From: Mobula hypostoma
Taxonomy: Eukaryota
NCBI RefSeq assembly: GCF_963921235.1
Contig: NC_086108.1
Coordinates: 66,714,001-66,778,000, forward strand
DNA length: 64,000 nt
Direction of reading: 5' to 3'
Shown one piece after another: positions 821-55,727 of the stretch. Each line of letters begins with the position of its first letter. Position 1 is the first letter of the stretch. A model generated the notes under the pieces. It ran no database searches. It worked only from the letters and a program-made list of their open reading frames with translations, and was not told the origin of the DNA. Both the position numbers and the translations under genes were made by a program.

Positions 821-1947
821 CAATGCAGTTTCACTATATCTCAAAATAGTAAAAAGATTTGAAAAGGAGGAGGAAAGTACTTTAATTCCCAAAAGCTATT
901 GAGCGATTCCTGATAAAGAAAACATGCAACTCTGTATGAGAAACAAGTAGTTTTGGACATAATTATGAATTACACAGGTAGCAATATTACTGTAAAGGAT
1001 GTATTCACTTGTTGAACTAATCCATAGAATGTTAAAATTGGTTATCATCCCTATGATCTTAGGCTGACCCTTCAGTACAGCACTACACTGAAAGACTGCA
1101 AAATTAAAGCCCAATAGTAAACCCAGCTCCTCCTTCAGGTTCAAATGAATGCACCAATTCTTATGACTCCGTCCAAGAAAAATAGAGGTTGCACCTGGTT
1201 TCCTAGCCAGCATTCTATGCCAACAGATAATATCTCAAGACAAATCATTCAACTGTTGTAAATTGATTGATTTGTTTGACCACAAACAACAATGCTTATA
1301 TCTGAAAAGTTAGTTTGATATGAATGGCTTCATTGAAGTGTAGGATGTAGTAGGCCATAATGTGGATGCAAGTTAGTTCATTTCCAAATTTGAGTGAAAT
1401 GACTGAAGAAATCCTATGTTTGGGATTAAATGAAAAAGCAGACTGTTTTGTTATTCTGCATTTTTCTCATCAATCAAGCACCATTCATATCTGAAAAGAA
1501 TGATTTTGAATCTTAAAGGGATGTTACCACCAACATGTACAAATATTTAGAATCCTATTGAAAGATTTTATGGAATCAGACACCAGACCTCTTACTTATG
1601 CATGCTATGACAAGAACAATGTTTTGCCTTTCAAGTGTCTATTCATGTTGGCCTGTACATCAAAAAAATGCTTGAAAATAAAAGTTTAAAGGAGGCTTTT
1701 TGCTGTCAGTGGAAGAAAAATGCTAGATTTAATCTAATATTTGAATAGAAATTTAACTTGTATAAGCCTTTAATGATCTGACCAACTCTTAGTGAAATGC
1801 CTCAAAGTCTGTTGCATATAATCTTGGGTCATTTCAATTAGCAACAACATATTATCTTTGACAATTTTGTTGCACTGAAGAAGGTATCAAACTTAACAGA
1901 ATTTGAAAATAGAATTAATGGTCTTTAATTGAAACATTTGTATATAA

Positions 1948-2180
1948 GCACAAGAAATTCTGCTGGTGCTGGAAATCCTGAGCAACACACTCAAAATACT
2001 AGAGAAACTGAGCAAGCCAGTTAGCATCTATGGAGGGGAATAAACAGTCATTTCAGGTCAAGGCCTTTCATTAGGACTGAGTGATGGTCCTGACGAAGGG
2101 TCTTGGCCCAAAATATTGACTGCTTATTCCCTTCCATAGCTGCCACCGGACTTGCTGAGTTCCTCTGGAACTTTGGGTGC
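1948..2180. mobile_element. Fold-back (inverted pair) of Penelope pseudo-LTR ends with degenerate hammerhead motifs
   Basis: Left arm is the reverse complement of the right arm, centre about 2080; ctgacgaagggtcttggccc at 2090. Confidence 0.7.
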
Positions 2181-7245: not shown

Positions 7246-9744
7246 AAATGCACTTTCAGTTACATCTGCTGACAAAGAAAACTATGTGATAACAATGGAA
7301 TAAGGTCAATGATATAGTTTCCACCTTGTGCAAATTTATATTTCATTAACTCTTAGATAACAAAGATTATATTGTCCCAGAGTAACTGAAAGAAATGACT
7401 GGAAGATATGCGACTGATACAATTCTATAGCATTGGTCTGTGATCCTGATTCACATGAGTATCCTTCCAGGATGTTTCCTTGTTCACAGTCTATTTTGGT
7501 CAGTTTTCAAATTGGTCACACGTTATCAACTTTTCAATATGCTTCATGTCCTGAAATACTCCAAAGTTTCATTATTGTTATCAAAAATAAACTGCTGGAA
7601 GGACCCAATGGATCAAGCAGCATCTGAAGAGGCAAAGGGATGGTCAACATTTCAAGTCTAAACTCGACATCTTATGAGAACTCATGAGGAATATACTTGA
7701 GATATCCTGTCACATGACATAAATGGCTTAACCATACTTCAGTTACTTGCTGCTCCTCCAAGGGCGTCATTGTAATTTTGAGTCAGAAAGGTTTTGTTTT
7801 AAAGGCTGTATTGAAACTTCCCTGCATCTCACCATTTTGCTGATTCACATTGACCTAACACTAATCATTACCAGTGAAAGCAATGATCTACACAGTCCTT
7901 GTGATGGATATTCACTGCCCAGTGTCCGGGGGACGGAGGGAATTTTTGCCAAGCTTTGCTTTCTAACAAAGCAGCTGACTCTTCCATGGGTCAAAGAGTT
8001 GTTTTTAAGCCAAACTCCCCACTAGTATTCTTTGTTCAGCTTCTTGTCGTAAACAAGAACTAGACTTTAGTTCTTAATGTAAATTGCAAGCAATAATCAG
8101 TCTGAAGTTAAAAGGACAGCTTTGCAAACAAACAGCACTGTTTATATAGCACAGGCTGCTGGCGCATAGCACAGTGCCAGCTGCTCAAGACACGTGGTAT
8201 AAATCAATGGGTTTATGTTAATTGTGACTGCGTCGAACCAGATAATACTGTCTAAGTTATTTAGTTCAAGGAAGCTTGCAAACCAGACTGATGCTATCAC
8301 TTTGCACATCAAATAGTTGATCTATCAATTTGTTGGGAGATCGGCATACTCAGAGAGTCAGCCCTCACAGCATTATTTTTGGGTGTCTGGGATTTCTATC
8401 CTTAGGAGCTTTTAGACCATTTGTTTTGAGTTTCCCAGAAAAGGAACCTGGAAAATATCGCATGTGTGTGAAGTCATCAGATAGCAAAAAAGAGCAGAAG
8501 TGTAAGAGAGCGGTCAGGCTGGTTAAGAATGGTTAATAAACAATAAGAAGAATGACAGAAAGTTGGAGTAACTAGATTCCTCTGCCTTTGATTTCTGTGA
8601 CAGGCGATTTGTTTGAATACAACTCATTGGTATGTCTTTTTCTAGCTTCTAGGAACTGTACTTGTGTTTTGGAAATTCTTTGTGTTTTAGAAAATGTTTG
8701 AAATTTGGAAATCTTTTATAAGATAGAAATCCTCTGAGCTTTAAATGTCTTTTAAGAATTTTATCTAAATTTAAATGTGTATCACTAAAAATAAATGAAC
8801 TGTGTTTAGAACTGCTTAATTAGCTGGAAGTACCTCCCCCTTGGTAGGGAGGGGAGACCCACTGCTTAAAGAGTAGGCATTGGCAGTTAAGCTCTCAGTG
8901 GAGAGTAAACAGGGAAATGATGTAACCTATGAAGTGTAGGTGGCTATGATATAACCGCACTTTAGTGAGGGCGTAGCTATCTATGATCGGATGGGGGGGG
9001 GGAGGGTGCCTAAGCTCTTCGTTTGAGTTCAGAACTTCATGGACAGCAAATCCAGCACCATCAAGTGCTAAAGCAGATTTCTCTCAATTCCATGCGCAGG
9101 CATAAATCATTTCCCAGTGGTGTAAAGACAAAGAATCTCTCTGCATGCTTGTTAAGTTTAAAGGTACAACAAACCTCACCACGGCATAGTGCTCTTTAGA
9201 AAGATTTCTTATTGTGATACTCCATGACTTTGCAACTGACCACACATTACCCTTTCCCTCCTTCCCCTACCCTACTTCTTATTATGGCTTCTGCTATGCT
9301 TCTTTCCAGTCCCGATAAAGGTTTTCAGTCAGGAAACTGAACTGTTTATTCCCCTGACCTGACTTGCTGCAGTCCTCCAAGATTTTGTTGGTGTTTCTTC
9401 CAAATACTTGCAAACTTTCTGAGTTTCAGATTTGAGAATGCCTCCCTCACTCTTATATAACAGCTTTCCGCAATCTCCCATTGAAACACTTCACAACTTT
9501 TTAAGCATTTCCTAACAAAGTGGATAATTTCTAATTGCACATTTTATTCGGTTGCAGAAGTGAACGGAACCAGTTAGATATGTGGAGGAGGTCAAAAGGA
9601 GACACAATTGAGGTTCAGCTGAAAGTTATTGAGTTATGGAATTCACAGATCACCACTCAAAAATTTGAGATACAGAATAAAAATTGCTCTTACTAAATTT
9701 ATATAGAGGAAAAGTAAATAAACATTCCTATCCGGAATGTTTAC

Positions 9745-10545
9745 TCTCCCTCCTGGCACTTATCCTTGCAAGCGGAACAAATGCTATACCTGACTCTGAA
9801 CCTCCTCCCTCACTAAAATTCAGGGCCCCAAACAGTCCTACCCGGTGAGGCAACACTTCACTTTGAGTCTATTGGGATCATATACCGTGTTCGGTGCACC
9901 CAGTGCTCCCAGTGTGGCCTCTTGTATATTGGTGAGCCCCAACGTAGATTGGGAGACTGCTTCACTGAGCACCTACTCTCCGTCTGCCAGAAGAAAAGGG
10001 ATCTCCCCATGGCCATCCATTTTAATTCCACTTCCCATTCCAATATGTCAATCCACAGCCTCCTCTACTGTCGCGATGAGGCCACACTCCATCTGAGTAG
10101 CCTCCAACCTGATGGTATGAGCACCGATTTCTCAAACTTCCAGTAATTGCCCCCGCTCCACTTCACCGTTCCTTTTTCCCTCCCTCTCCTTATCTCCTTG
10201 CTTGTCCATCGCCTCCATTTGGTGCTTTTCCCCCAATTTATTTCTTCCATGGTCTTCTGTCCTCTCCTATTAGATTCCCCCTTCTCCAGCCCTGTATCTC
10301 TTTCACCAATCAACTCCCCGGCTCTTTACTTCACCTCCTGGTTTCACCTATCACCTTGTGTTTCTCCCTCCCCTCCCCCTGCTTTTTAAATCTTCTCCAA
10401 ATCTTTTTTTCTCCAGTCCTGCTGAAAGGTCTCGGCCCGAAACATCAACTGAACTCTTTCATAGATGCTGCGTGGCCTGCTGTGCTCCTCCAGCATTTTG
10501 TGTGTGTTGCTTGGATTTCCAGCATCTGCAGATTTTCTCCTGCTT
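9745..10545 (+). mobile_element. Penelope-like element 3' part: GIY-YIG endonuclease remnant plus pseudo-LTR
   Basis: CSQCGLLYIGEPQRRLGDCFTEHLLSV..HFNSTSHS..LQPDGM; pyrimidine-rich pseudo-LTR with a hammerhead-like motif at about 10415-10450. Confidence 0.85.
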
Positions 10546-10619
10546 ATGTTTCTGTTTCTGTTTCTTGACACATGGGAAGTTGATGCACCTCCTCATGATT
10601 GAAAATCACAATATGGACC

Positions 10620-12379: not shown

Positions 12380-13070
12380 GGGAGGTGGGGCATTAGCGGA
12401 AGTTAAGTGTACCTCTTCCTAGAGATGCTGCCTGGTACATCAACTGTACCTCTTCCTAGAGGTGCTGCCTGGCCTGCTGCGTTCACCAGCAACTTTTATG
12501 TGTGTTGCTTGAAATCCCAGCATCTGCAGATTTCCTCGTGTTTGCACCTGTACCAGTTCAGGGTTTTGTAACTCTGATCTCACCTAGCCTCCAACCTGAT
12601 GGCATGAACATTGACTTCTCTAACTTCCACTAATGCCCCACCTCCCCCTCGTACCCCATCTGTTATTTATTCATATACACACATTCTTTCTCCCTCTCTC
12701 CTTTTTCTCCCTCTGTCCCTCTGACTATACCCCTTGCCCATCCTCTGGGTTTTTCCCCCCCTCCCCCTTTTCCTTCTCCCTGGGCCTCCTGTCCCATGAT
12801 CCTCTCATATCCCTTTTGCCAATCATCTTTTCAGCTCTTGGCTCCATCCCTCCCCCTCCTGTCTTCTCCTATCATTTTGGATTTCCCCTCCCCCTCCCAC
12901 TTTCAAAATCTCTTACTAGCTCTTCTTTCAGTTAGTCCTGACGAAGGGTCTCAGCCTGAAACGTCGACTGTACTTCTTCCTAGAGATGCTGCCTGGCCTG
13001 CTGCGTTCACCAGCAACTTTTATGTGTGTTGTTTGAATTTTCAGCATCTGCAGAATTCCTCGTGTTCGCG
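12380..13070 (+). mobile_element. Young composite Penelope insertion with 15-bp target site duplication (TSD)
   Basis: tctttctcaaagagg at 12365-12379 and 13071-13085; ORF end LQPDGMNIDFSNFH*; pseudo-LTR highly similar to 18490-18880. Confidence 0.85.
12934..12969 (+). ncRNA. Minimal type I hammerhead ribozyme (intact core)
   Basis: AGTC-CTGACGA-AGG(gtctcag)CCT-GAAA-C-GTC-GACT: stem I AGTC/GACT, CUGANGA core, stem II AGG/CCT, GAAA, GUC cleavage triplet. Confidence 0.75.
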
Positions 13071-13721
13071 TCTTTCTCAAAGAGGCGTTTTACATTTTTA
13101 GTTTCTAGGATCTTGGAGCTTTTGGAAAAGCAGTTTGCAATCATTTGTTTAAGACAAGGCATCCTGTGAAGGCATCAACTTTTACTCCCATTAGGTTATG
13201 GCCCATTATTTCCGGAAAAGGTTCCACATGTACAGTATGACCTACATCTTCAGAAGAAACATAGGAAATGACTGTGCTAATGACTTTTGCTGCACCTCTG
13301 AAAACAAGCAGCAGCTCTGTGCAAACTCAGATCTTGTGACAACATTTAAGATATCATTGTTTAGATAAATGAACAGAAAATGGTAATAGGAGTGAGTTGT
13401 TCTAGTACCTTAGTTTTCAACAAGCAAATGACCGTCGTTAGGAAGAGGAACTAAATGAAAAGAATAAGATAAATTGTTTTCTATTGATATGAAGCACCAG
13501 CTGGATTGACTTCAGATCCGGACTGTAAATCCTCACTGTCAATGATCCGATGTTTTGCATGTCTTCTACATCTGAATTCTCTCTCCTTCACTTAGCACAA
13601 AGTCATTCTCCACTACAGGGTTGGATTCACATTCACATTCCATCAGGCCCCTCTGCTTCACACCAGCTAAGCAGTAACCCATTCATTGGGATACAGTCAC
13701 AAACTTCATTAAACAAGTAGT

Positions 13722-14480: not shown

Positions 14481-14544
14481 TAGTTAAATGTCCAAAATGC
14501 ATTGCCTCATACTTATTCAAATCAAAAACCATTTACCAATCCTT

Positions 14545-15250
14545 ACAACACACACAAAATGCTGGTGGAACGCAGCAGGCCAGGCAGCATCTATAGGAAG
14601 TACAGTCAATGTTTCAGGTCAAGACCCTTCGTCAGGACTAACGGAAAAAAGAGATAGTAAGAGATTTGTAAGTGGAAGGGGGAGGTGGAGAGCCGAAATG
14701 ATAGGAGAAGACAGGAGGGGGAGGGATGGAGCCAAGAGCTGGGAAGATGATTGGCAAAAGGGAAACAAGACTAGAGAAAGGGGAATATCATGGGACAGGT
14801 GGCCTTGGAAGAAAGAAAGGGGGAGGGGAGCACCAGAGGAAGATGGAGAACAGGCAAGGAGTTACGGTGAGAGGAATTTATTTATTTATTATTTATTTAT
14901 TCCCTCTCTCTTTCCCTCTCACCATAACTCTTTGCCTGTTCTCCATCTTCCTCTGGTGCTCCCCTCCCCCTTTCTTTCTTCCAAGGCCTTCCGTCCCATG
15001 ATACTCTCCCTTCTTCAGCATTGTTTCCCTTTTGCCAATCAACTGTCCAGCTCTTAGCTCCATACCTCCCCCTCCTATATTCACCTATCATTTCAGGTCT
15101 CCCCCCTCCCCCTCCTACTTTCAAATCTCTTACTAGCTCTTCTTTCAGTTAGTCTTGACGAAGGGTCTCGACCCGAAACGTTGACTTTACTTCTTCCTAT
15201 AGATGCTACCTGGCCTGGTGTGTTCCACCAGCATTTTGTGTGTGTTGCTT
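14545..15250. mobile_element. About 700-bp fold-back of two inverted Penelope pseudo-LTRs
   Basis: 14545-14875 is the reverse complement of about 14893-15250, with an (ATTT)n spacer; hammerhead variants at about 14603-14640 (-) and 15150-15186 (+). Confidence 0.8.
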
Positions 15251-15254
15251 GAAT

Positions 15255-18014: not shown

Positions 18015-18180
18015 GGGCAGATGCTGCAAATCCAGAGCAACCCATACAAAATGCTGGAGGAACTTAGCAGGTTAGGCAGCATCTATCAAAATGACATTTC
18101 AACCTGAGACCTATCGTCAGGACTGGAAAGGAATGGGGGAAATGACCAGGATAAAAAGCGGGGGGGAGGGGAAAGAAAAC
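18015..18180 (-). mobile_element. Older Penelope pseudo-LTR fragment (target of the next insertion)
   Basis: aaaatgctggaggaacttagcagg..cctatcgtcaggactgg, diverged from the young copies. Confidence 0.6.
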
Positions 18181-18290
18181 GTTAGAAGGTGTAAACAACA
18201 GGAATTCTGCAGATGCTGGAAATTCAAGCAAAACACATCAAAGTTGCTGGTGAACGCAGCAGGTCAGGCAGCATCTCTAGGAAGAGGTAC

Positions 18291-18326
18291 AGTCGACGTT
18301 TCAGGCCGAGACCCTTCATCAGGCCT
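18291..18326 (-). ncRNA. Minimal hammerhead ribozyme (antisense arm, one stem I mismatch)
   Basis: Minus strand reads AGGC-CTGATGA-AGG(gtctcgg)CCT-GAAA-C-GTC-GACT. Confidence 0.65.
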
Positions 18327-18783
18327 AACTGAAAGAAGAGCTAGTAAGAGATTTGAAAGTGGGAGGGGGAGGGGGAGATCCGAAATGATAGGAGAAGACA
18401 CACTCAGGTTGGAGGAACAACACCTTATATTCCGTCTGGGTAGCCTCCAACCTGATGGCATGAACATCGACTTCTCTAACTTCCACTAATGCCCCAGCTC
18501 CCCCTCGTACCCCATCCATTATTTATTTTTATACACGCATTCTTTCTCTCACTCTCCCTTTTCTCCCTCTGTCCCTCTGACTATACCCCTTGCCCATCCT
18601 CTGGGTTCCCCCCCACCTTGTTTTTCTCCCCAGACCTCCTGTCCCATGATCCTCTCATATCCCCTTTGCCAATCACTTGTCCAGCTCTTGGCTCCATCCC
18701 TCCCCCTCCTGTCTTCTCCTATCATTTTGGATCTCCCCCTCTCCCTCCAACTTTCAAATCCCTTACTCACTCTTCCTTCAGTT

Positions 18784-18819
18784 AGTCCTGACGAAGGGTC
18801 TCGGCCTGAAACGTCGACT
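18784..18819 (+). ncRNA. Minimal type I hammerhead ribozyme (intact core)
   Basis: AGTC-CTGACGA-AGG(gtctcgg)CCT-GAAA-C-GTC-GACT; predicted cleavage after C18815. Confidence 0.78.
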
Positions 18820-19864
18820 GTACCTCTTCCTAGAGATGCTGCCTGGCCTGCTGCGTTCACCAGCAACTTTGATGTGTGTTGTTAGAAGGTGTATGTTGAT
18901 AACGTAGAAGATGTAGGTCTGTATCGATGTCCCTAGACCTTTTTCTAACATAACTGGAAATTAAAAACTGCTACTCTTGTTCTGAAAGCTTTTAAACCAA
19001 TCACAGCTGGAAAAGTCTATCAAGAATACAGTAAATACTCAGTATAAAAATCATGCTGATTCTAAAGAGGGTGAATATTATACTTTGACAGAAAATCCTT
19101 CTTAATGCAGAGCCACTTTAGAATTCAATTAGTAGCATTTGTCCTGGTTCACAGGCAAAGAACTTCAAGAAACAAAATCCTTTTATCAAGGCCAATTAGC
19201 TTGAAGCCAGTGCATTTTGTATGTGAATAAATTTTTCTTAAACTAAAAACACTATTTCATTAAAACAGGGAGGCGTGACGAGAGTCGGCTAAAGGCTGAG
19301 AGATGAAAGGCTCTCTTGGAATATGTTTAAGTCAAGTCGAATGCTCAATGAGCTGAGAGTCTGAAGCATCAATTGTGGTATTAAGTCCGCTCCCTGATCA
19401 AACAGAAGAAGCATGCAGTGCCACACCCTCCCCATATATTCCTGGCATTCTCTGTCCACCAGGCTCTTCAGCTTTCTTTCACCACTAAATAGTGGAAAAA
19501 TTACATTGATTTACACTTCACAGGGTAGGCGACAAGAGAAGGAGTTAAAGATGAAACACATTCCAAAACCACACTGCTTTGAAACCAGTTGTTTGCCGAT
19601 ATACTACTTTCCTTCCAAGAAACCTTTCTTTGAAAAATGTCTCTATGTTCTCTGTGCTACTTAGAACATATATCTGCTCTTAAGAGACAAGGCTCTTGGC
19701 AGTATTTGGGAAAACACTTAGGAGGTTTATCAAAAGCTTCCCTAAAACAAGTAATAACAAAGCACTATCAGTAGGCTAGACAGATTAAACTTTTATAGGA
19801 GCTGGAAGCTGCTTTTAATTTCAATTGACTCATGAAAGTAGCTGCACAATGAATTTGTCAGGAG

Positions 19865-20313
19865 TCCCACGGCTATCTTTTGACTGTACCTCTTCCCACC
19901 CTGAATCCTGTAAAAATGCTATTCGTTTTTCTCAGTTCCTTCGCCCCATCTGTTCCCAGGATGAGGCTTTCCTTTCCACGACATCAGAGATGTTCTCCTT
20001 CTTCAAAGAATGTGGTCTCCCTCCTTCCAAGCTCACCTGCATCTCCTTCATTCCCTGGACACCAATACTCATCTCATGTTTCCGCCACCTTAGCAGGGAT
20101 ACAGTTCCTCTCGTCCTCACCTATCATCACATGACCCTCTGCATTCAACACATTATTCTCCATAACTTCTGCCATCTTCAATGGGATCCTATTATCAACA
20201 CATTTTACCTCCCCCGCTCTCCATTTTCTGCAGGGATCGCTCCCTCTGTGATTCCCTTGTCCATTCTCCTCCTCTCCTCCCAATCTCTCTTGTGGCACAT
20301 ATCCCTGCAAGCA
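19865..20313 (+). mobile_element. Penelope ORF fragment (RT C-terminal region), left half of a split element
   Basis: DCTSSHPESCKNAIRFSQFLR.ICSQDEAF..VPLVLTYH..IILHNFCHLQ; ends at tatccctgcaagcag. Confidence 0.8.
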
Positions 20314-20580
20314 GCATGGTTAGTATAGCAGTTAACAGTGCAACTCTATAACAGCCTGGGGCATTGCAGAGTTCAGAGTTCAATTCCAGGGCCGCTGTCT
20401 GTACATCTTCCCTGTGAAAGGTTTGGATTTTCCCTGGGTGCTCTAGTTTCCTACTATGGTCTTTGGTTAGGTTATTGAGTCATTGTAAAGTGCCCTGTCA
20501 TTAGGTTAGGGTTAAATGGAGTTGTGGGATTGCTGGAGCAGCATGTTTTGAAGACCCAGAAGTGCTTACTCCATGCTGTA
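20314..20580 (+). mobile_element. tRNA-derived SINE; its tail continues at 22982-23005 after the Tigger insertion
   Basis: A-box-like tggttagtatagcagt, B-box-like gttcaattcc, V-domain-like tttccctgggtgctctagtttcct; tail ccatgctgTA|ttgctaaattaaa. Confidence 0.65.
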
Positions 20581-20738: not shown

Positions 20739-21457
20739 TGTACGGGGTCTCTTTTTTTTGGTATGTTAAATTTAAAATGGCTTCTTTGTTATGTTAAATG
20801 CTAAGAAAGTCTCCAGCTAGACATTTGCTTGGGTTAACACAGATAGCAGGGAGCTATTAGCCAACGGGTATTCATGTTATTGTTCTTCGGGTGATAATGC
20901 TGTCTCATATGACTGTGGACGGGGTTTTTGGCGGGGAGTCGCAGGAAAGACGGAGAGGACGACAGACGTGCGAAAAGGCTCCGGTCCATCACTCTGGGTG
21001 GTCCCCAGCCGCGAGTCGACGGGGACCGGGTGGTCCCGAGCCGCGAGTCAACGGGGTCCGGGTGGTCCCCAACCGTGAGTCGACGGGGTCCGGGTGGTCC
21101 CGAGCCGCGAGTCGACGGGGTCCGGGTGGTCCCCAGCCGCGTGTCGATGGGGTCCGGGTGGTCGTCAGGAATTTCTGAGCTCCAACTGGTGCACGAAGGA
21201 CTTGGACTTTGATAAGTCTGGCACTTTTTTTTCCCCATTACTTCCTTTTCTGTATCGAATTTATATTAATTTCATAGACGTAGTAATATCTATAAAGTGT
21301 ACCTGGTAAAAGGTACTGTGGGTGCTGGCTGATGATTGACATTTGGGATTGATTTGGGTGGCTGTGGTACAGCAACTGACCCAGCGGGAAGCGTTCAGGC
21401 CGGTGCCGTGCGGGATTTCCCCTAGACATATACCAGCCAATATAGCTGAGCGTTACA
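20739..21457. mobile_element. Solo LTR, 719 bp, 4-bp TSD ATAG
   Basis: tgta..taca termini; ATAG at 20735-20738 and 21458-21461; sits inside a CR1 (catagaa)n tail. Confidence 0.8.
20996..21163. repeat. 32-bp GC/CpG-rich tandem repeat, about 5.25 copies
   Basis: Unit gggtggtcccSagccgcgagtcgacggggWcc starts at 20996, 21028, 21060, 21092, 21124 and 21156. Confidence 0.95.
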
Positions 21458-22138: not shown

Positions 22139-22813
22139 TCACTCACTGGAATCAGGAAGACTCCAGTAAATTGCAGTTTCGTCACAGTTAAACACTTGCT
22201 TATATGAATAACCACCTTCTGTAATTATTTTCTTCAGTTCTGCTGGGAACCTTTTGGCAGCCTCAGTATCAGCCAAAGCACTCCCTCCGGTAAACGTTAA
22301 ACTATGAAGCTGCCCTCGCCTCAGAAACCGATCAAACCACCCATGACTACCTTTAAATTCCACTTTCGCAACACTTTCATCACCATCGTCCAGTGCTTTC
22401 TGTTTCAGCTTATTAAAAAGACTAACTGATTTCTCCGTAAGTACAAGAAAACTTAACGGAACACCACGTTTTGTACACCCATCAATCCACTCAAGCAATA
22501 GACTTTCCATTTTATCCATTATTGGATGCCGACTAAGAGAGACCACTTTGCTGCGAGCAGAACCAACAGTAACATCGGCAGCTTTCAAAATTCTTTCTCT
22601 CTGCGTATAAATAGTGCGAATGGTGGACGCAGGCAAGTTCAACGCGCGGACAATGTCCTTACTTCGTTCACCACAATCGAAACGTTTAATTATCTCTAGT
22701 TTTACGCTAAGTGTAACACCCTTATGAACTCTTTTAGGCTTTTCCAATGCCTTAGAACTCACCTTGCTAATGGATGCACAAAATAAATTGAGATAAAGCA
22801 CGTGTTTAAGCAA
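22139..22813 (-). pseudogene. Truncated pogo/Tigger transposase (two HTH domains and the first catalytic motif)
   Basis: TLSVKLEIIKRFD..LNLPASTIRTI (psq-type HTH), MESLLLEWI..FKGSHGWFDRF (CENP-B-type HTH), QVFNCDETAIYW, then stop. Confidence 0.85.
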
Positions 22814-23002
22814 TGGCAGCTAGAATGCAGTTCCAGGGGAGGAACCTGGCTGTTCGGGTGCACGCTGCCTTTTTTCGTAACAGTGAAAACACCTTCGGTT
22901 AGTGAAAACAGGTAACTAATGTAGGTCTTTCGTAACAGTGAGGTGTCGTAAAGCGAACGTTCGGAAAACCGGGGCCACCTGTATTGCTAAATTAAAGAAA
23001 AT

Positions 23003-23232
23003 AAATAAATGTGACACCTGCCCACTCATCTCCTCCCTCACCTCTATTCAGGGTCCCAAACAATCCTTCCAGGTGAGGCAACACTACACCTGTGAATCTG
23101 TCGTCTACTGTACCTGGTGCTCCCAATGTGGTCTCCACTACATTGGTGAGATGTAAACTATGATCTGTTTTGTTGAACACATCCGCTCCATCCACCATGA
23201 GCGAAATTTTTCTGTGGCCAACCATTTAATCT
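23003..23232 (+). mobile_element. Penelope GIY-YIG fragment, right half of the element split at 20313
   Basis: KCDTCPLISSLTSIQGPKQSFQVRQHYTCESVVYCTWCSQCGLHYIGE; follows tgcaagc in the uninterrupted copy at about 9768. Confidence 0.8.
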
Positions 23233-23753
23233 GTAGCCATTTAATTATACCCTTGCTGTCTTAAAGTCCTTACACTCTCTGGGCTGTTTTGTTGCAGATT
23301 CTAATTGTTGAGCTATGCTTTGTTCAAAAGTGCAGTGAAGAGCAGAATCTGTGTACCTGCTTATCAATACACTAATCTTCAGAATGACAATGGCGACTGG
23401 AAAGGAGAGAAAACTGTGTTCACCAGCAATTTTTATGTGTGTTGCTTGAAATTCCAGCATCTGCAGATTTCCTCGTGTTTGAATTGTCAAAGTCTCTCTC
23501 TGTCTTGACAATCAGCATCAAACTAAATGAAACCCAGTTAAAGAGTCTCTCTTTCACTTTATCAACACTTGCTATAAGACCCATTTGAACCATTTTTGGC
23601 TGTAAATGGCCACAATTAAATTAGATGGAAATTAATGCTGTATGTGGTAATTTACAAAAATGGCAGCCAATATTTTATTTAGAAAGTCCAATCTATTTCT
23701 TACTCTTGTCAATAACTACATATTGTTTCTCAGCTTTTCCATCTTTATTGCAG

Positions 23754-27331: not shown

Positions 27332-27727
27332 TGTCATGGTCTCTTCTGGCAGTCCCCCACCTTACCATTTACCTCAGGAATTGGGCCTCAATCCCCTCAT
27401 TTAATTTCCAATCATTCCCAGGGTCCACTAACTACACACACCTGCCTTCCATCAGAAAATGCAGGATGAAGACCCTGTGATCACAACAAGGAGCTGCCAG
27501 TTCGTTGGTCGACTCTGGTGTGAGTAACCTCGTTTCACGGTTCTTAGAATTGTTAGTTCTAAGTCTAGCATCGCTCTTGGATTCTCTCCAAACCCAAGAC
27601 TTTGGGTAAAGACTCTCCTGGAAACTGATTCCATACCGCTATGGCAATAATGCCTCCTGACTCTACCCCCCCCCCCCCGTGCCCGTGTTCTGCACTTGGG
27701 TTCATCCACCGCCATGCTTGTGTAACA
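27332..27727 (+). repeat. 5' LTR of the Sushi-like element
   Basis: tgtcat..gtaaca; roughly 90% identical by eye to 32061-32450. Confidence 0.92.
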
Positions 27728-27743
27728 GAACGAACTGGCCATA

Positions 27744-28761
27744 ATGCACCCAGCGGACATGGATCCCGTACAACAGGCCCTCGCCAGCCAGGGCTACCTA
27801 CTGGGTGCCTACGACCAACTACTTAGGGAGGTCATGGAAAATCCTCGGATGCTATCCACGAATGTTCAGAAGGTCAGTGAGCTTCCGCTTCCCTTTCTCC
27901 TCCCCTCCAAGAACCCTGACTGCCCAAACTGCACCGCTCGGGATGACATCGTCCCTGGGATCAGCAACACAGTCCCCTTGACAGTCATATGTACCCGAGC
28001 CCGAACCCTACGCTGGGGACCTAGGGAGGTGCCAGGCCTTCCTGCTACAATGCTCTCTGGTCTTTGAGCTACAGCCACGTACCTACACTTCAGATAAATC
28101 CAAGATTGCGTACATCATGGGGCTTTTACGAGGGGATGCCTTGGCTTGGGCAACCGTGAAATGGGATAACCAACCAGAGGTTTGTTCCTCCTTCCCCTCC
28201 TTTGTTGCCGAAATGAGGAAGGTCTTTGAACAACCCATGTGTGGTAATGACACCACTAAATGCTTGCTGACTCTTTGCCAGGGTTTGTGAAGCATAGCAA
28301 GGTATTCCATCGAGTTCCGGACCTTAGCCGTAGACTCAGGGTGGAATGACGAGGCCCTACGGGAGGTGTTTCGACAGGGTCTCTTGGACAAGATAAAGGA
28401 TGAACTGGCAGCGAGGGACAACCTGGAATGTCTGGACTGTCTGATCTCACTAGGCACTAGATTAGATAATTGACCTCAAGAGCGGCTGAGAAAAAGAGCC
28501 AGTTGCCCCGCTCCTCGGAGAAGCCCACGGTCCACCTTATCAGTCTCAGCCAGCCTCCCTTCCCCAGCCGCTCCAAGTGTAGCTCCTGCTCCGACCGTCC
28601 CCACCACCCTGGGGGAGGAACCGATGCAGCTGGGACGGAACCGTCTCTCCCCGGCCGAACGACTTGGGAGGTGGAGAGCTGGGGATTGTTACTATTGTGG
28701 CCAGCCAGGTCATTTCTGGGATACCTGCCCTCAGCGGCCAAAAGGGGGGGCTCACCAGTGA
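27744..28761 (+). pseudogene. gag: gag (frameshifted, with stops)
   Basis: PEPYAGDLGRCQAFLLQCSLVFELQP..KIAYIMGLLRGDALAWA; EEPMQLG; CCHC knuckle CYYCGQPGHFWDTC at about 28687-28728. Confidence 0.88.
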
Positions 28762-31700
28762 AAAGGGGGTCCCTGGTGAGCTGGACGATTCTCCCTTCAG
28801 CCCCTCAGACTCCGACACAGATCCCGGCTACCGTGAATTACCAATGACAGTCCCTGTCCCTATCCAATTTGGTGGATTCCGGTGCTGAGGGAAGTCTGCT
28901 GGACAAAGACATAGCCTCCCAGGCTGGAATACCTCGCAAGACGCTAACTGCTCCCCTGGAGGCCCGGGCCCTGGACAGAAAACTGCTGGCTCGGGTGACC
29001 CTGACCTTAATCCTATCCGGCAACCATTGGGAGGAGGTACGATTCAGTCTCATTCATTCACCTCAAGCCCCGGTAGTTCTAGGGTATCTATGTCTGACCC
29101 ACCACAATCCCCATATCGACTGGTCTACCGGGAGGATAGCCAAATGGAGCCCATCTTGCCATGCCAACTGTCTGTGGTCAGCCACATCTCCCAGGGGAGC
29201 TACCGCGACCTTGCCTGTCCCGGAACCCCTTGCTTTGTCCTGAGTCCCCACAGAATACCATGACCTGGGACAGGTATTCAGTAAACAACGGGACCTTTCC
29301 CTGCCTCCGCACCGCCCATATGATTGTGCCATTGACCTTCTCCCCGGGGCCTCACTACCCACCAGTCACCTTCTTAACCTATCCTGACCAGAGAGAGGCC
29401 ATGGAGAAGTACATTAGCAAGTCCCTCGCGGCAGGTGTTATCAGACCTTCATCCTCCCCGGTAGGCACTGGTTTCTTTTTTGTAGAAAAGAAGGACTTGT
29501 ATTGATTACAGAGGCCCAAGCAGTATAACAGTTAAGAGTAGGTACCCTGTATCCCTCATTAGTTTGGCTTTTGAACCACTGCATGGAGGCACCATCTTCT
29601 CAAAGCTGGACCTTCGTAATGCCTACCATCTAGTCAGGATGAGGGAGGGGGATGAGTGGAAGACGGCCTTTAATACACCTCTGGGCCACTTCAAATATTT
29701 GGTCATGCCATTTGGCCTCACCAATGCTCCTGCTGTTTTTCAAGCCTTAATCAATGACGCACTGAAGGATTTTATTAATCGGTTCGTATTCGTTTACCTC
29801 GATGATATCCTGATATTTTCTAGCACCCCCCCAAGAACACGTTCACCATGTCTGTCAAGTCCTCCAGAGACTGTGGGAAAACCAGTGATTTGTGAAGGCG
29901 GAGAAATGCGAGTATCCCGTTCCTTCGGTCAGCTTCCTGGGTTATATCATTGAGAGCCGGCAGGTGAGAGCAGACCCCCAGAAGATCCGGGCAGTGGAAG
30001 AATGGCCTAGGCCCACGACCCACAAACAACTTCAATGATTCCTGGGGTTTGCAAACTTCTACCGCCGATTTATCAGAGCCTACAGTCGAGTGGCAGCCCC
30101 CCTTACCCGGCTTACCTTGCCTACTACCCCTTTCTGTTGAGACTCTGAAGCTGACTCGGCATTCACCAACCTGAAGAGGCGTTTCACCACCACTCCCATC
30201 CTGGTCCATCCGGACCCAGCCCATCAATTCATTGTTGAGGTGGACACCTCTGACTCCGGAATAGAAGCAGTCCTGTCCCAACAATCAAGTCTGGATGAAA
30301 AGCTTCACCCCGCGCCTTCTATTCTCGCTGACTGTCCCCCGCCGAGTGGAATTACGACATGGGGAATCGGGAACTCCTGGTGGTCAAACTAGCATTGGAA
30401 GAATGGAGGCACTGGCTGGAAGGGGCAGAACAATCGTTTGTGGTGTGGACTGATAATAAAAACCTGGGGTATATTCAGACCGCCAAATGTTTGAACTCTC
30501 GTCAGGCCCGTTGGGCGTTACTGTTTGGACGGTTCCAGTTTTCCCTCACATACCGTCCAGGGTCCAAGAACGGGAAGCTGGATGCGCTTTCCTGCCAATA
30601 CGTCTCCAAGGAGGACACTTCCAGCCCAGGGACTATCCTCCCACCATTCTACGTGGTTGCCACCCTCACTTGGAAGATCGAGTCCAAAGTAAAAGAAGCC
30701 CAATGGGATGACCCCGACCACGGCAATGGACCCGGCGATCGCCTGCATGTGCCCGTTTCCGTCAGGTCTCAGGTTCTGCAATGGGGGCACACATCTCGAT
30801 TCGCCTGCCACGCCAGGAGTGATTGGACTCGAGCGCTCCTGAAAAAACACTTTTGGTGGCTGTTCATAGAGGCGAATACCCATTCCTATGCCTCGGCATG
30901 TTCAATCTGTGCCCTGGGAAAAGCCTCTCATCGGCCACCTGTGGGTTTACTTTGTCCTCTACCTGTCCCTAGTCGCACATTGCCCCAGACTTTATCACCA
31001 GTCTACCCCCTTCACAGGAAAACACCACCGTACTCACTGTGGTAGACTAGTTCTCCAAGGCAGTGTACTTTGTAGCCCTCCCTAAAATCCTTTCCTCTCA
31101 AGAAACCGCAGATCTTCTCATTCACCATGCCTTCTGCCTCCACGGAATCCCCGCGGACATCATCTCTAATCGAGGTCCCCAGTTCGTCTCGCAGGTATGG
31201 AAGGCATTCTATCAAGCCTTAGGTGCATTGGTCAGCCTGTCATCTGGCTTCCACCCCCAGACGAACGGCCAGACGGAACAGGTCAATCAAGGCCTGGAGG
31301 CGATGCGACGTTGTGTAATGGCAAACAATCCGTCGACCTGAAGCGACCATCTCCTGTGGGTTGAGTACGCCCACAACCTTCTGGTGAGCTCTGCCATTGG
31401 AAGGTCTCCATTCGAATGCTCCCTGGGGTACCAACCCCCGCTGTTCCCCGCGCAAGAATAGGAGATTGCAGTACCATTGGTTCAGGACCATGTCGATCGG
31501 TGCCTTAAGTTCGGGAGGAGACATGCACGGTCCTTCTCAGATCAGCAAATCGCAATAAAAAGACGGCCGACCGACACCGGAGTCTGGCACTTGAGTACCA
31601 GCCGGAGCAGATGGTGTGGCTTTCATCCAAGGACATCCTGCTTAAGCACGAGCAGAGGAAACTCGACCCCTCGCTTCCTGGGACCATTCAAGGTCGAAAG

Positions 31701-32049
31701 TGTTATCAATCCCGCAGCGGTCCGCCTAAAACTGCCAAGATCTATGCGCATCCACCTGACTTTTCACGTTTCCCAGTTAAAGCCAGTTTCCGTCAGCCCC
31801 TTGTGTCTCCTGACTGAGACTCCCCCACCTACCCGTATCATCGACAACCATCCAGCATACACCGTCCGATGACTACTGGATGTGTGCCTTCGGGGCAGGG
31901 GTTTCCAATACCTGGTAGACTGGGAAGGGTACGGTCCAGAAGAGCGTTCCTGGGTCCCCCGCTCCTTCATCCTAGACCCTCCCCTCATCCAAGACTTTAA
32001 TCGGGACCATCCAGACAGGCCTGGAGTATCGCCTGGAGGCTCCCGTTGA
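28762..32049 (+). pseudogene. pol: pol (protease, RT, RNase H, integrase, chromodomain), multiply disrupted
   Basis: [91 protein letters not shown]. Confidence 0.93.
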
Positions 32050-32060
32050 GGGATGGGTAC

Positions 32061-32450
32061 TGTCATTCTTCCCTTCTGGCAATCCCCCACCTTACTATTT
32101 ACCTCAGGAATTGGGCCTCAATCCCTTCGTTTAATTTCCAATCATTCCCAGGGTCCACTAACTACATACACCTGCTTTCCATCAGGAAATGCAGGATAAA
32201 GATCCTGTGATCACAACAAAGAGCTGCCAGTTCGTTGGTTGACTCTGGTGTGAGTAATCTCGTTTCATGGTTCTTAGGACTGTTAGTTCTAAGACCAGCA
32301 TCACTCCTGGATTCTCTCCAAACCCAAGACTTCAGGTAAAGACTCTCCCGGAAACCGATTCCATGCTCACTACGGCAGTAATGCCTCCTGACTCTGCTCC
32401 CACACCCGTGTTCCGCACTTGGGTTCGTCCACTGCCACGCTTATTTAACA
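32061..32450 (+). repeat. 3' LTR of the Sushi-like element
   Basis: tgtcat..ttaaca directly after the PPT. Confidence 0.92.
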
Positions 32451-37544: not shown

Positions 37545-38680
37545 TCAAGTACAAATTCAAGTTTATTGTCATCTGCCTGTACATATATACAACTAAATAA
37601 AACAATGTTCCTCCAGATGATGGTGCACCTACAAAACATATAGTATGTCACACATAGCAGTAAAATAAAAGTTATTACTGCAAATAATTTAATAAAATAT
37701 AATTCAATATTATGTGGTACACAGCACAGGTAAACAGCAAACAGCTTGCTGTCCCACTGATAAGACCATGGTGGACAGCAGGGCATTCATTAGTCTCACA
37801 GTCTCAAGAGAAAGCTGTTACTCAGTCTGGCAATCCTAGTCCTGATGCCCCTGATGCTCCTGTACCTCCTTCCTGACAGTAGTGGGTCAAAGAGATTCTG
37901 TGATGTGTGGTAGGGATCTTCAACAATGCTTCATTCCCTTTGTATACACTACTCCCAGTAAATGTCACAAATAGGGCAGAGGAAGACCACAGTGATTCTC
38001 TTGGTTGTTTTTACTATCCCCTGTAAGGTCTTATGGCCTGATGCCTTGTAGCTTACATTACATAGAAAGTTGTTAGAATAGGAGCAGGCAGCCTTGCACG
38101 CCTCGATCTCCTCAGAAAGTGTAGACTCTGCTGTGCCTTCTTGACTATTGAGGAGGTGTAGTGGTCCAGGTTAGATCGTCCGCTATGGACAATCCAAGAA
38201 ACTTTGTGCTCTTCACATCCTCCACAGCAGAGCCATTTCTTTGCAATGGAGAGTGGTCAACCTATGCTTGTCTGAAATCCACAATAATCTCTTTTGTCTT
38301 GACAACATTGACACCCAGGTCGCTGTTCTCACAGCATTTGACAAGCCTCTACACCCCCCCTCTCTGTATGTCAACTCATCATTGCTGCTGATGAGGGCAA
38401 ATACCATTGTATCATCAGTGAATTTGATGATGCTGTTTGCGCTTCATCAGGCAGTGAGTTAGCAGGTGAACAGCAGCGGGCAGAACACACAACCCTGAGG
38501 GGCACCAGAGCTCAGCATGATGGAGCTTGAGATCTTGAGGCCAACCAGACTAACTGGGGTCTTTCCGTCAACAAGTCCAAGATCCAGTTCCAGAGAGGGG
38601 TGTTGAGTCCCAACAAGGCCAGTTTACCCACCAGTCTCTGAGGAATGATCATGTTAAATGTCAAGCTGAACAACATCCTG
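37545..38680 (-). mobile_element. Rex1/Babar LINE 3' fragment
   Basis: [33 protein letters not shown]; tail gacaataaacttgaa on the minus strand. Confidence 0.8.
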
Positions 38681-45329: not shown

Positions 45330-46075
45330 CCCTTATCTGAGATTTCAAAATCCAAAAGCCTCCGAAACCTGAAATTTTTTGAGCGCTGACGTGACATCAC
45401 AAAAATTAAATTCCACAATGTGCTGGGAAGGCACCCAGGTGATGTGCAGCTCTCTGCACACCCCAGACAATTCTAAGATGTGACCTCACATATGTAATGA
45501 ACAACAAAAACAACACTGCATAAAGCGAGAAATGAAGATCTCGATCGTATATTGAAAGAGTGGATTTGTCAGCAGAGTCAACATACGCCACTTAACGCTA
45601 TGCTGATCATGAAACAAGCGAAGATCTATCATGACGAACTGAAATTTGAAGTAAATTGTGACTTCAACAGGCTGGTTGCAGATATTTAAGAAATAGCACG
45701 GTATTAAGATTTTTAAAATTTTAAAGATAAAGTGAATGCTGATCACAAAGCAGCAAAGAACTTCATTGATAAGTTTGTGTAGATCGTAACTGATGAAAAT
45801 CTAATACCAGAACAAGTCTACAATGTTGATTACTTTTATACCTACACAAAACCCCCAAAAAAACAAATAAAGTGTACTGTAATCTTTTAATCAAAACATG
45901 ATATCGTAGGTGGAGACTGAAGGCTTGCCATTGTTTGTTCACAGCTGATTCAGGTATTCTCCCGATGCTGCTGTGCTGATTTTGTTACCCTGCACACATT
46001 ATATTTTCATTGTAATAATGTTTACTGTTAAGTATGTGTGTGTGATGAACAAGTGTAAGACAAAGACTGCTTATA
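45330..46075 (+). mobile_element. Decayed Tigger/Jerky-like pogo derivative
   Basis: KTLHKARNEDLDRILKEWICQ..LIMKQAKIYHDEL..ADHKAAKNFIDKF..DENLIPEQVYNVD at about 45510-45830. Confidence 0.7.
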
Positions 46076-49537: not shown

Positions 49538-49638
49538 GCAACACACACAAGATGCTGGAGGGACTCAGCAGGCCAGGCAGCATCCATGGAAAAGAGTAAA
49601 TAGTCGACGTTTCAGACAGAGACCCTTCTTCAGGGCTG
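49538..49638 (-). mobile_element. Short Penelope pseudo-LTR fragment with a hammerhead core
   Basis: Minus strand CTGAAGA-agggtctctgtct-GAAAC-GTC-GACT; flanked by cccttgataat direct repeats (about 49526-49536 and 49639-49649). Confidence 0.7.
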
Positions 49639-55000: not shown

Positions 55001-55178
55001 CCTTTCTTTAGCTGTAATAGTATCCCTGACCAGATCCCTGATTCCTTGCTTAATTGTATCGGTATGGCATAAAAAAGATTGGGAACCCCTGTTTGAGATA
55101 GAATAATCTGGAATCAGGAGTGCTTATTCTATCATTTGTAACTTTATCCCATTTTATATTGAAGACACTTTATCTGTG

Positions 55179-55415
55179 ACACACACAAAATGCTGGAGGA
55201 ACTCAGCAGGCCAGGCAACATCTATGGAAAAGAGAACAGGCAACATTTCGGTGCAAGACCCTTAGGCAGGCCAGAAAGGTCCTGAGTCCTGCTGGGGGGT
55301 CTCATCCTAAAACATCGACTGTACTCTCTTCCATCGATGCTGCCTGGACTGCTGAGTTCCTCCAGCATTATGTGTGTGTTGCTTGGATTTCCAGCACCTG
55401 CAGATTTTCTCACGT
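55179..55415. mobile_element. Fold-back of Penelope pseudo-LTR ends
   Basis: acacacaaaatgctggaggaactcagcagg.. versus ..ctgctgagttcctccagcattatgtgtgtgt; centre about 55280. Confidence 0.75.
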
Positions 55416-55727
55416 TTGTTGTCGTTTGTTTATGTGTGACACTGCTTACATCATTAATATGCTCAATGCAACCCACTTATTCTCAACTACACAAATGATG
55501 TAGATACAAAAAAAAAACTGCTAGAGGAACTCATTGGGTCAAGCAGCATCTGTAGTGGTAAGTCAACAGTTGATGGTTTGTGTTGAGAACCCGTGTCAGA
55601 ACTGAGAGCGATTATTCTCAATAGTTATGCTCATCACAACTGAACTTCATCATCTGGATGACGTGCTACAGTAGTGTGCCTACAATTATTGCCAATGTAG
55701 TGTATTTAATATTTCAGTAATATTTGT

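What the first reader, a model, noticed from the sequence alone, without database searches (positions are those of the whole stretch)
18784..18819. Intact minimal hammerhead ribozyme in Penelope pseudo-LTRs, about ten copies in 64 kb
Seen: AGTC-CTGACGA-AGG(7 nt)CCT-GAAA-C-GTC-GACT here and at 12934-12969. Variants lie at about 2090, 9310, 10419, 14603-14640 (-), 15150-15186, 18095-18125 (-), 18291-18326 (-), 49602-49636 (-) and 55285-55320. Established: CUGANGA..GAAA..NUH is the hammerhead core, and PLEs carry minimal type I hammerheads. Stem III has no loop but is the palindrome ACGT, as in minimal hammerheads that cleave as dimers. Inference: this is a dense, possibly still active ribozyme family that could cut any transcript crossing the region.
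Basis: partly seen in the sequence, partly recalled or inferred. Interest (0 to 1): 0.75.

Follow-up and report, generated by a model that had tools for sequence, protein, structure and literature searches.

The report
Penelope-element minimal hammerhead, fossil copies
The flagged 36 bases are a real copy of the small self-cutting RNA motif already known from the ends of Penelope-like jumping genes, here in shortened, decaying insertions in a ray-like fish genome, where it is probably silent.

Summary
Confirmed: 18784-18819 is a minimal type I hammerhead (core, no-loop ACGU stem III, site after C18815). The window holds 14 recognisable copies, but only 2 of 14 pass a strict descriptor (0 in 100 shuffles). 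All look like 3' ends of a Neptune-type Penelope-like element: GIY-YIG stop codon, pseudo-LTR, motif, 66/101-nt tail, target-site duplications. This arrangement was published in 2014 (PMC4209133), and this scan noted it before, in this genome and others. The claim that it cuts any crossing transcript is not supported: the monomer folds into a core-sequestering rod, the double hammerhead is about 10 kcal/mol worse than two rods, and the flagged copy pairs with its own inverted arm in read-through RNA. Young copies show no significant excess conservation of the motif (3/108 vs 21/408, p=0.44); 33 of 39 CpG-site changes are deaminations. Every copy spans the cleavage site, so the templates were uncut. 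One lead: 6 of 14 copies begin just upstream of helix I, possibly marking the element RNA's 5' end. No cleavage assay was possible.

The parts
18784..18819 (+). Minimal type I hammerhead motif (flagged): helix I 18784-87/18816-19; CUGACGA 18788-94; unpaired A 18795; stem II 18796-99/18804-07; GAAA 18808-11; palindrome ACGU 18811-14; predicted cleavage after C18815
18401..18880 (+). 5'-truncated PLE 3' end: last codons of the GIY-YIG ORF (stop at 18487-89), pyrimidine-rich pseudo-LTR, hammerhead, ending about 65 nt past the cleavage site (no tail)
   Evidence: (26 of 28 residues identical to ray protein P0002, which has a weak Pfam GIY-YIG hit)
18194..18400 (-). Inverted 5' arm of the same insertion, with hammerhead copy 18291-18326 (core intact, one helix I mismatch) and the roughly 35-nt tail; 93% complementary to 18710-18887
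   Evidence: (I3)
18181..18193 (+). 13-bp target-site duplication, left copy
18881..18893 (+). 13-bp target-site duplication, right copy
12380..13070 (+). Second young composite insertion: short inverted and repeated pieces at 12380-12549, then GIY-YIG end, pseudo-LTR, intact hammerhead 12934-12969 (site after C12965) and tail; flanked by a direct repeat at about 12365-81 and 13071-87
9730..10550 (+). Older copy with broken ORF end: C-x4-C-x2-C linker, GIY-YIG domain (frameshifts, stops), pseudo-LTR, decayed hammerhead 10415-10450, tail
14538..15254 (.). Inverted pair of pseudo-LTR arms with decayed hammerheads 14604-14639 (-, palindrome broken) and 15151-15186 (+, C3 changed to U)
1944..2179 (.). 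Short inverted pair; both arms start within a 7-nt spacer at helix I; decayed hammerheads 2043-2078 (-) and 2086-2121 (+)
55179..55428 (.). Short inverted pair; arms start within an 11-nt spacer at helix I; decayed hammerheads 55238-55273 (-) and 55285-55320 (+)
49539..49638 (-). 100-bp solo copy starting 1 nt before helix I, flanked by an 11-13 bp direct repeat; hammerhead 49602-49637 (core intact, helix I mismatch)
18017..18150 (-). Older short copy with decayed hammerhead 18089-18124
9290..9400 (+). Old copy with heavily decayed hammerhead 9308-9343 (boundaries approximate)
55487..55611 (-). Old short copy with heavily decayed hammerhead 55568-55603; possible 10-bp target-site duplication
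23414..23488 (+). Tail-only fragment starting 36 nt past the cleavage site (no hammerhead)
19819..20328 (+). Internal PLE ORF fragment, region between RT and linker (58% identical to P0002 over 112 aa); no pseudo-LTR attached
22998..23228 (+). Broken PLE linker/GIY-YIG fragment

Best explanation
The motif is the minimal type I hammerhead of the pseudo-LTR of a very abundant Neptune-type Penelope-like retroelement (PLE) of rays. The window's copies are dead, 5'-truncated insertions. SHOWN: the motif follows the GIY-YIG stop codon by about 295 nt; copies end about 66 or about 101 nt past the cleavage site in AT-rich flanks; several have target-site duplications; 8 of 14 lie in divergent inverted pairs; they carry CpG-type decay. 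INFERRED, from published PLE work: in a tandem master the motif is off as a monomer. It cleaves after GUC only when two copies swap strands into a double hammerhead joined by the ACGU palindrome, probably with help from the element's own protein. Reverse transcription starts at two internal sites downstream of the motif on uncut RNA, so each new copy carries a whole motif. Selection keeps the core in the masters. After insertion the copies decay neutrally. At this locus the flagged copy is probably silent: it has no free same-strand partner close by and is masked by its antisense arm.
For: PLE identity: the GIY-YIG fragment 9817-10143 matches ray proteins P0002-P0005 (E 5e-31 to 3e-8) and a 947-aa RT + GIY-YIG protein P0006; the CKRNKCYT linker is; TSDs. 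Tail: loose ends at 13031 (X1, X17, X15) and 13066 (X15) with AT-rich flanks, like the two RT start sites and AT-rich targets in PMC11167929. Selection in masters: loose ends at 12934 and 12971 bracket the hammerhead, with divergent subfamily sequence outside; across 14 copies non-CpG core columns differ 10/125 against 147/835 downstream (p=0.006, biased by how copies were chosen). Neutral decay after insertion: 3/108 against 21/408, p=0.44, in the three youngest copies; 33 of 39 changes at 8 CpG columns are deamination-type. Silence: monomer rod with GACG paired to CGUC at p=0.98; double hammerhead -11.5 against -22.0 kcal/mol for two rods and -30.3 for the best dimer; 34/36 and 35/36 motif nt paired to the inverted arm on either strand.
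Against: No cleavage assay and no raw RNA reads. Nearest-neighbour energies ignore core and tertiary contacts and protein help. The neutral-decay test has three copies and little power, and its trend (2.8% against 5.1%) leans towards conservation; the flank count is inflated by one misaligned indel. No covariation above shuffles among the 14 copies (225 of 500 shuffles as well paired), so the fold rests on the match to the known consensus. The window's own GIY-YIG fragment has no Pfam hit; only its homologues do, below the curated cut-off. No PLE RT is in the window, so the clade is called from the linker alone. Two intact same-strand motifs lie 5.85 kb apart, so a cis dimer in a + strand transcript is not impossible. 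In two runs guessed to be RNA, depth just past the site is 1.8-2.0 times that over the motif, against 1.3 in the DNA run; this could be cleavage or subfamily mix.
Confidence: 0.85

Rival explanations
1. One reading: intact dispersed copies (12934 and 18784, or partners in trans among many genomic copies) form double hammerheads in host pre-mRNA and cut transcripts crossing the region.
For: Two complete motifs on the + strand 5.85 kb apart. The family is very abundant (141,055 contigs laid on 551 bp in one DNA run) and appears in runs guessed to be RNA. Dimers of PLE hammerheads do cleave in vitro (PMC4209133; PMC6765202 passages); 1 of 9 Xenopus dimer elements cleaved strongly (bioRxiv 10.64898/2026.07.22.740005).
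Against: 18784 is masked by an antisense arm transcribed before it, and 12934 has antisense arms 1.6 and 5.1 kb downstream (duplexes -290 and -373.5 kcal/mol). The double hammerhead is disfavoured against monomer rods. 8 of 9 Xenopus dimers did not cleave. No host exon was found among 238 ORFs of >=50 aa scanned with Pfam, so no crossing transcript is identified.
Confidence: 0.06
2. The short (100-135 nt) hammerhead-headed copies are a separate non-autonomous family (SINE-like or retrozyme-like) copied from their own masters by the PLE enzyme, not incidental truncations.
For: 6 of 14 copies start within about 11 nt upstream of helix I, one with a clear TSD. Depth over motif plus tail is about three times that of the upstream pseudo-LTR. 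One contig in run X15 joins tail to GIY-YIG end head-to-tail.
Against: No tandem array of such units appeared in the window. The short copies resemble the long 10415 copy (79-85% identity). Four of the six are arms of inverted pairs, a typical PLE insertion product (PMC8557442, PMC3846280 passages). The depth step is also explained by subfamilies with divergent upstream sequence (loose-end consensus at 12934 is pseudo-LTR-like).
Confidence: 0.15
3. The motif is kept mainly as a non-cleaving RNA element (protein-binding, splice-acceptor or promoter-overlapping structure), and catalysis is vestigial even in masters.
For: All 14 motif-bearing copies span the site uncut. Ribozyme mutants do not affect insertion in vitro, and no RNA-seq ends were seen at the site, in PMC11167929. 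U at position 11.1 is the majority (C in 39%, 32%, 22% of depth in X1, X17, X15). A pyrimidine tract plus AG sits at the start of helix I, where an intron ends in Drosophila virilis Penelope.
Against: The catalytic bases and the palindrome are kept across divergent subfamilies. The Anolis motif cleaves, with C3/G8 rescue, when protein is present. No GT..AG joint among the 15 joints shown of 99.
Confidence: 0.12
4. Chance resemblance to a hammerhead.
For: No Rfam hammerhead family among the 19 matches at E<=1; folding z-score -0.37; no covariation above shuffles.
Against: Strict descriptor 2 hits against 0 in 100 shuffles. Position in the pseudo-LTR, the extra base after A9 and the palindrome at 15.2-16.2 all match the published consensus.
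Confidence: 0.01

Closest known systems
Minimal hammerheads (min-HHR) in pLTRs of metazoan Penelope-like elements (Cervera and De la Pena 2014, PMC4209133)
   Same: Type I topology, 4-5 bp helix I, unpaired base between positions 9 and 10.1, palindromic 15.2-16.2 with no loop 3, location in the pLTR, mostly solo truncated copies, pairs on opposite strands 100-700 bp apart; reported in fish Xena, Poseidon and Neptune elements.
   Different: Stem II is short (4 bp plus tetraloop, against 7-8 bp in Schistosoma). Position 11.1 is U in the flagged subfamily. A shark or ray family was not named in the parts I read (parts 1-2 of 4) or in the supplement files searched (file 1 could not be searched).
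Neptune (or Nematis) clade EN+ PLEs (Craig et al. 2021, PMC8557442)
   Same: C-terminal GIY-YIG preceded by a CX2-5CxxC linker, 5' truncation, inverted 5' arm, optional 30-40 bp tail, hammerhead in the pLTR.
   Different: No full-length element or RT in this window, so no RT tree. Insertions here are in AT-rich sites with 10-15 bp TSDs, not evidently in (TA)n.
Poseidon element of Anolis carolinensis, PAc (Frangieh et al. 2024, PMC11167929)
   Same: Two 3' end points downstream of the hammerhead that define a tail; AT-rich targets; uncut RNA as template.
   Different: Different clade (no Cys linker in Penelope/Poseidon). In PAc the ORF starts in stem II; the ORF start here was not determined. 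Protein-assisted cleavage was shown for PAc and is only inferred here.
Non-LTR retrozymes of animals (bioRxiv 10.64898/2026.07.22.740005)
   Same: pLTR-derived type I hammerheads in non-coding repeats; found in the one chondrichthyan sampled.
   Different: Retrozymes are head-to-tail tandem arrays with at least two complete motifs. The window's copies are solo or inverted.

Membership tests
PLE minimal type I hammerhead (min-HHR) | Catalytic core CUGAnGA ... GAAA ... NUH | tested here: met
   11 of 11 core bases in 18784 and 12934; 6 of 14 copies overall
PLE minimal type I hammerhead (min-HHR) | Type I topology with a 4-5 bp helix I | tested here: met
   AGUC/GACU plus a U.G or C-G pair; 86% of cells paired across 14 copies
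PLE minimal type I hammerhead (min-HHR) | No or minimal helix III, palindromic 15.2-16.2 | tested here: met
   ACGU in 5 of 14 copies; most others are CpG-decayed forms
PLE minimal type I hammerhead (min-HHR) | Unpaired base between positions 9 and 10.1 | tested here: met
   A at 18795; register favoured 0.87-0.97 against 0.02
PLE minimal type I hammerhead (min-HHR) | G10.1-C11.1 pair (described as highly conserved, not part of the search descriptor) | tested here: inconclusive
   G.U wobble in the flagged copy; G-C in 4 of 14 copies, G.U in 6; C in 22-39% of laid depth
PLE minimal type I hammerhead (min-HHR) | Located in the pLTR of a PLE | tested here: met
   About 295 nt after the GIY-YIG stop codon in 18401-18880; same order in 12585-13070 and 9730-10550
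PLE minimal type I hammerhead (min-HHR) | Compensatory changes in stems | tested here: inconclusive
   No excess over shuffles in 14 related, decayed copies; no distant families available to align
PLE minimal type I hammerhead (min-HHR) | Self-cleavage as a dimer or with protein | not testable with these tools
   Needs an in vitro assay; the laid runs were contigs, which cannot show RNA ends
Rfam hammerhead families | Covariance-model match | tested here: not met
   No hammerhead family among 19 matches at E<=1; expected for a motif with no stem III loop (inference)
Neptune/Nematis-type EN+ PLE | C-terminal GIY-YIG endonuclease | tested here: met
   59-63% identity to ray proteins P0002-P0004; P0002 and P0003 have Pfam GIY-YIG hits at E 5e-4 and 2e-3, below the curated cut-off; the window fragment itself has no Pfam hit
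Neptune/Nematis-type EN+ PLE | CX2-5CxxC linker before the endonuclease | tested here: met
   CKRNKCYT in 9731 frame, last Cys lost by decay; complete in P0002 and P0003
Neptune/Nematis-type EN+ PLE | Telomerase-like RT and RT phylogeny | not tested
   No PLE RT core in the window; no genome held; no tree was built
Neptune/Nematis-type EN+ PLE | 5' truncation, inverted 5' arm, 30-40 bp tail, TSD | tested here: met
Non-LTR retrozyme | Head-to-tail tandem units with two or more complete hammerheads | tested here: not met
   No such tandem among the window's copies; one head-to-tail contig joint elsewhere in run X15

The most novel reading that the evidence does not exclude
The short copies are 'strong-stop' cDNAs. 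RT starts at its internal site near the 5' end of the element RNA and runs off that end. The cluster of 5' ends 1-11 nt upstream of helix I (6 of 14 copies, 4 insertion events, none at the cleavage site) would then map the RNA's 5' end to the base of an uncut hammerhead. Genomic fossils in a very high-copy ray family would thus show that the transposing RNA begins with an intact, switched-off hammerhead. Cleavage would act against retrotransposition, removing the first 35-40 nt, rather than creating the template end. This bears on the open question of what PLE hammerheads are for.
Probability: 0.3. Interest if true: 0.45.

Novelty: new member of a known kind. Interest (0 to 1): 0.15.

Why it matters
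As a kind it adds nothing new: minimal hammerheads in PLE pseudo-LTRs are published for fishes, including Neptune elements. The value is as material. A family this abundant in rays gives the numbers to map where reverse transcription starts and stops relative to the ribozyme, and to test whether intact motifs are depleted on the sense strand of introns, which would measure any real cost to host transcripts.

Tried and rejected
Rfam scan of the whole window: no hammerhead; the miRNA/snoRNA-like hits at 14742-15011 are below gathering scores and reflect the inverted pLTR hairpin. No whole genome is held, so no genome-wide count. Covariation test on 14 copies: nothing above shuffles. Splicing to the AG at helix I: no GT..AG joint among the 15 joints shown of 99; contigs of mixed copies are a weak test, so this is open. 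RNA ends at the cleavage site: none listed, but the three informative runs are contigs and cannot show ends; the raw-read run X21 laid only 15 low-complexity reads. Host gene: 238 ORFs of >=50 aa (of 791 ORFs of >=40 aa; those over 30% self-repeat, those under 50 aa and two retroelement regions were left out) gave only transposon-type Pfam hits; short exons would be missed. Pattern scans for more copies: 0 in metagenome contigs, 0 in viral contigs, 1 with a shorter pattern, not read. Lunse et al. on dimer cleavage is not held; seen only as a citation in PMC6765202. Five literature searches listed no paper devoted to this ray family. Rejected: chance motif; retrozyme tandem in this window; the AGG(7)CCT stem II register as the preferred one.

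Full report
Observation. The sequence at 18784-18819 is as described. A strict minimal-hammerhead descriptor matches only 12934 and 18784, and nothing in 100 dinucleotide shuffles. Six of 14 keep all 11 core bases. The others have lost core bases, the ACGU palindrome or helix pairs. Rfam gives no hammerhead match.

Anatomy of the motif. Helix I is AGUC/GACU, extendable by one pair. The core is CUGACGA at 18788-94 and GAAA at 18808-11, and the predicted cut is after C18815. This matches the published consensus, which has an extra base between positions 9 and 10.1 (PMC4209133; parts 1-2 of 4 of the text read; supplement searched except file 1). In this register position 11.1 is U in the flagged copy, where the paper reports a highly conserved G-C pair. 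Four of 14 window copies have G-C, and C makes up 39%, 32% and 22% of summed depth in runs X1, X17 and X15. No covariation above shuffles was found among the 14 copies.

The carrier. Upstream of the flagged motif the + strand reads TLRLEEQHLIFRLGSLQPDGMNIDFSNFH then stop, 26 of 28 residues identical to P0002, named by its source as a Mobula hypostoma protein. The older copy at 9730-10550 keeps a broken C-x4-C-x2-C linker and GIY-YIG domain. That domain finds four ray proteins and one 947-aa RT + GIY-YIG protein among 49 candidates. The Cys linker marks Neptune/Nematis-type elements and is absent from Penelope/Poseidon (PMC8557442, passages). The host is therefore inferred to be a ray or close relative. 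The flagged copy belongs to one insertion, 18194-18880, bounded by a 13-bp target-site duplication: an inverted arm with tail, then a direct arm without. The same design is described for other PLEs (PMC3846280, passages). Further duplications flank 12380-13070 and 49539-49638.

Family-wide data. Four runs were laid on 12560-13110 at 80% likeness. One DNA run gave 141,055 contigs, so the family is very abundant; the tool warns that depth is no copy number. Two runs guessed to be RNA gave 7,468 and 10,228 contigs, which does not prove transcription. The raw-read run gave only 15 low-complexity reads. Among the 20 loose ends shown (1,309 not shown), those at 12934 and 12971 bracket the hammerhead, with other subfamilies' sequence outside. 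The motif is thus the conserved block across subfamilies. Loose ends at 13031 and 13066, 66 and 101 nt past C12965, have AT-rich, low-agreement flanks. They match the two internal RT start sites that define the PLE tail in the Anolis element (PMC11167929, parts 1-2 of 4 read).

Is it active here? Four lines say probably not. First, decay: the two arms of the flagged insertion differ at 11 of 172 columns, and in the three youngest copies the motif has 3 changes in 108 positions against 21 in 408 in the flanks (p=0.44; low power, trend towards conservation). Across all 14 copies, 33 of 39 changes at CpG columns are deaminations, and the palindrome's CpG differs in 11 of 28 cells. Non-CpG core columns are better kept than downstream sequence (10/125 against 147/835, p=0.006). 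This fits selection on masters, but copies were chosen by likeness to the motif. Second, folding: the monomer forms a rod in which GACG of the core pairs with CGUC at the cleavage site (p=0.98). The double hammerhead scores -11.5 kcal/mol against -22.0 for two rods and -30.3 for the best dimer. These energies ignore tertiary contacts and protein. Third, masking: in a divergent inverted pair the antisense arm is transcribed before the motif on either strand. For 18150-18950, 34 and 35 of 36 motif bases pair with the other arm (-393 and -412 kcal/mol); four other cases tested gave 34, 34, 30 and 23. Eight of 14 copies lie in such pairs. 12934 has antisense arms 1.6 and 5.1 kb downstream. Fourth, precedent: no monomer and low dimer cleavage for a Schistosoma min-HHR; no cleavage without protein, and no need of cleavage for insertion, in Anolis; 1 of 9 Xenopus dimers active (bioRxiv 10.64898/2026.07.22.740005, parts 1 and 3 of 5 and passages; supplements closed). 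Against this reading: two intact motifs share the + strand 5.85 kb apart, and depth just past the site is relatively higher in the RNA-guess runs (1.8-2.0 against 1.3; computed from table 2). No host exon was found in 238 ORFs, so no crossing transcript is identified.

Mechanism. Shown: position in the pseudo-LTR, tail end points, TSDs, inverted arms, decay, and that all 14 motif-bearing copies span the site, so their templates were uncut (or re-ligated). Inferred: in tandem masters the motif is off as a monomer and cleaves as a strand-swapped dimer through ACGU, probably protein-assisted. Dimer cleavage is summarised in PMC6765202 (passages); the Lunse et al. paper itself was not available. 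PMC6155905 (passages) describes the same motif class in PLEs.

A lead beyond the finding. Six of 14 copies, from four insertion events, begin 1-11 nt upstream of helix I. Of three fragments that start further downstream, one starts 4 nt past the site, one 36 nt past it and one inside the core. If RT also starts at the internal site near the RNA's 5' end, these short copies would mark that end at the base of an uncut hammerhead. The sample is small, selection for whole motifs biases it, and the read data cannot separate truncation from divergent subfamilies, so I give it 0.3.

Comparison and verdict. It works like, and on the testable features is a member of, the PLE minimal hammerheads described in 2014 for fish Xena, Poseidon and Neptune elements. 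It is not a retrozyme array in this window. Five searches listed no paper on this ray family, though most subscription journals and Repbase are not covered. Earlier notes of this scan report the same motif in this genome and in sharks; they are unchecked and not counted as support. Verdict: correct catch, known kind, probably silent at this locus; interest 0.15.

Noticed in passing
18765-18785 and the same place in 12934, 15151, 10415, 18089, 9308 copies: A pyrimidine tract followed by AG sits exactly at the 5' strand of helix I, like the intron end in Drosophila virilis Penelope; a possible 3' splice site that would change helix I. No spliced joint was seen among the joints shown.
   Followed up: partly
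12380-13070: One TSD-bounded insertion made of several template jumps: a 26-30 nt inverted piece of the ORF end, a piece starting 4 nt past the cleavage site (12408-12435), a piece starting inside the core with tail (about 12436-12549), then the main copy.
   Followed up: partly
run X15 laid on 12560-13110: One contig (depth 274) joins 13008 through tail-like and GIY-YIG-like letters back to 12585: a head-to-tail pseudo-LTR tandem elsewhere, possibly retrozyme-like.
   Followed up: no
27340-32364: Ty3/gypsy-type LTR retrotransposon with 295-nt LTRs 92% identical and broken capsid, RT, RNase H and integrase frames.
   Followed up: no
56500-59450 (-): Second broken Ty3/gypsy-type element: protease, RT, RNase H, integrase fragments.
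   Followed up: no
52890-55123 (-): LINE with an endonuclease frame (222 aa) and an open 531-aa RT frame; CR1-like by my recall.
   Followed up: no
22139-22819 (-) and 45501-45686 (+): Tigger/pogo-like transposase fragments with CENP-B/Tc5 DNA-binding domains.
   Followed up: no
20993-21195: GC-rich tandem repeat with a 32-nt unit, about five copies.
   Followed up: no
14742-15011: Long hairpin from inverted pseudo-LTR arms gives many sub-threshold Rfam miRNA hits; an artefact.
   Followed up: yes
38056-38256 (-) and 48370-48651 (+): Pfam ALKBH8_N hits; most likely C-terminal pieces of LINE ORFs rather than host exons (my recall, not tested).
   Followed up: no
whole window: Cumulative GC skew falls steadily to about -2.1, which could reflect a long intron of a minus-strand gene; no exon was identified.
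   Followed up: partly
L001:14-38: One metagenome contig holds the central part of the motif pattern; not read.
   Followed up: no
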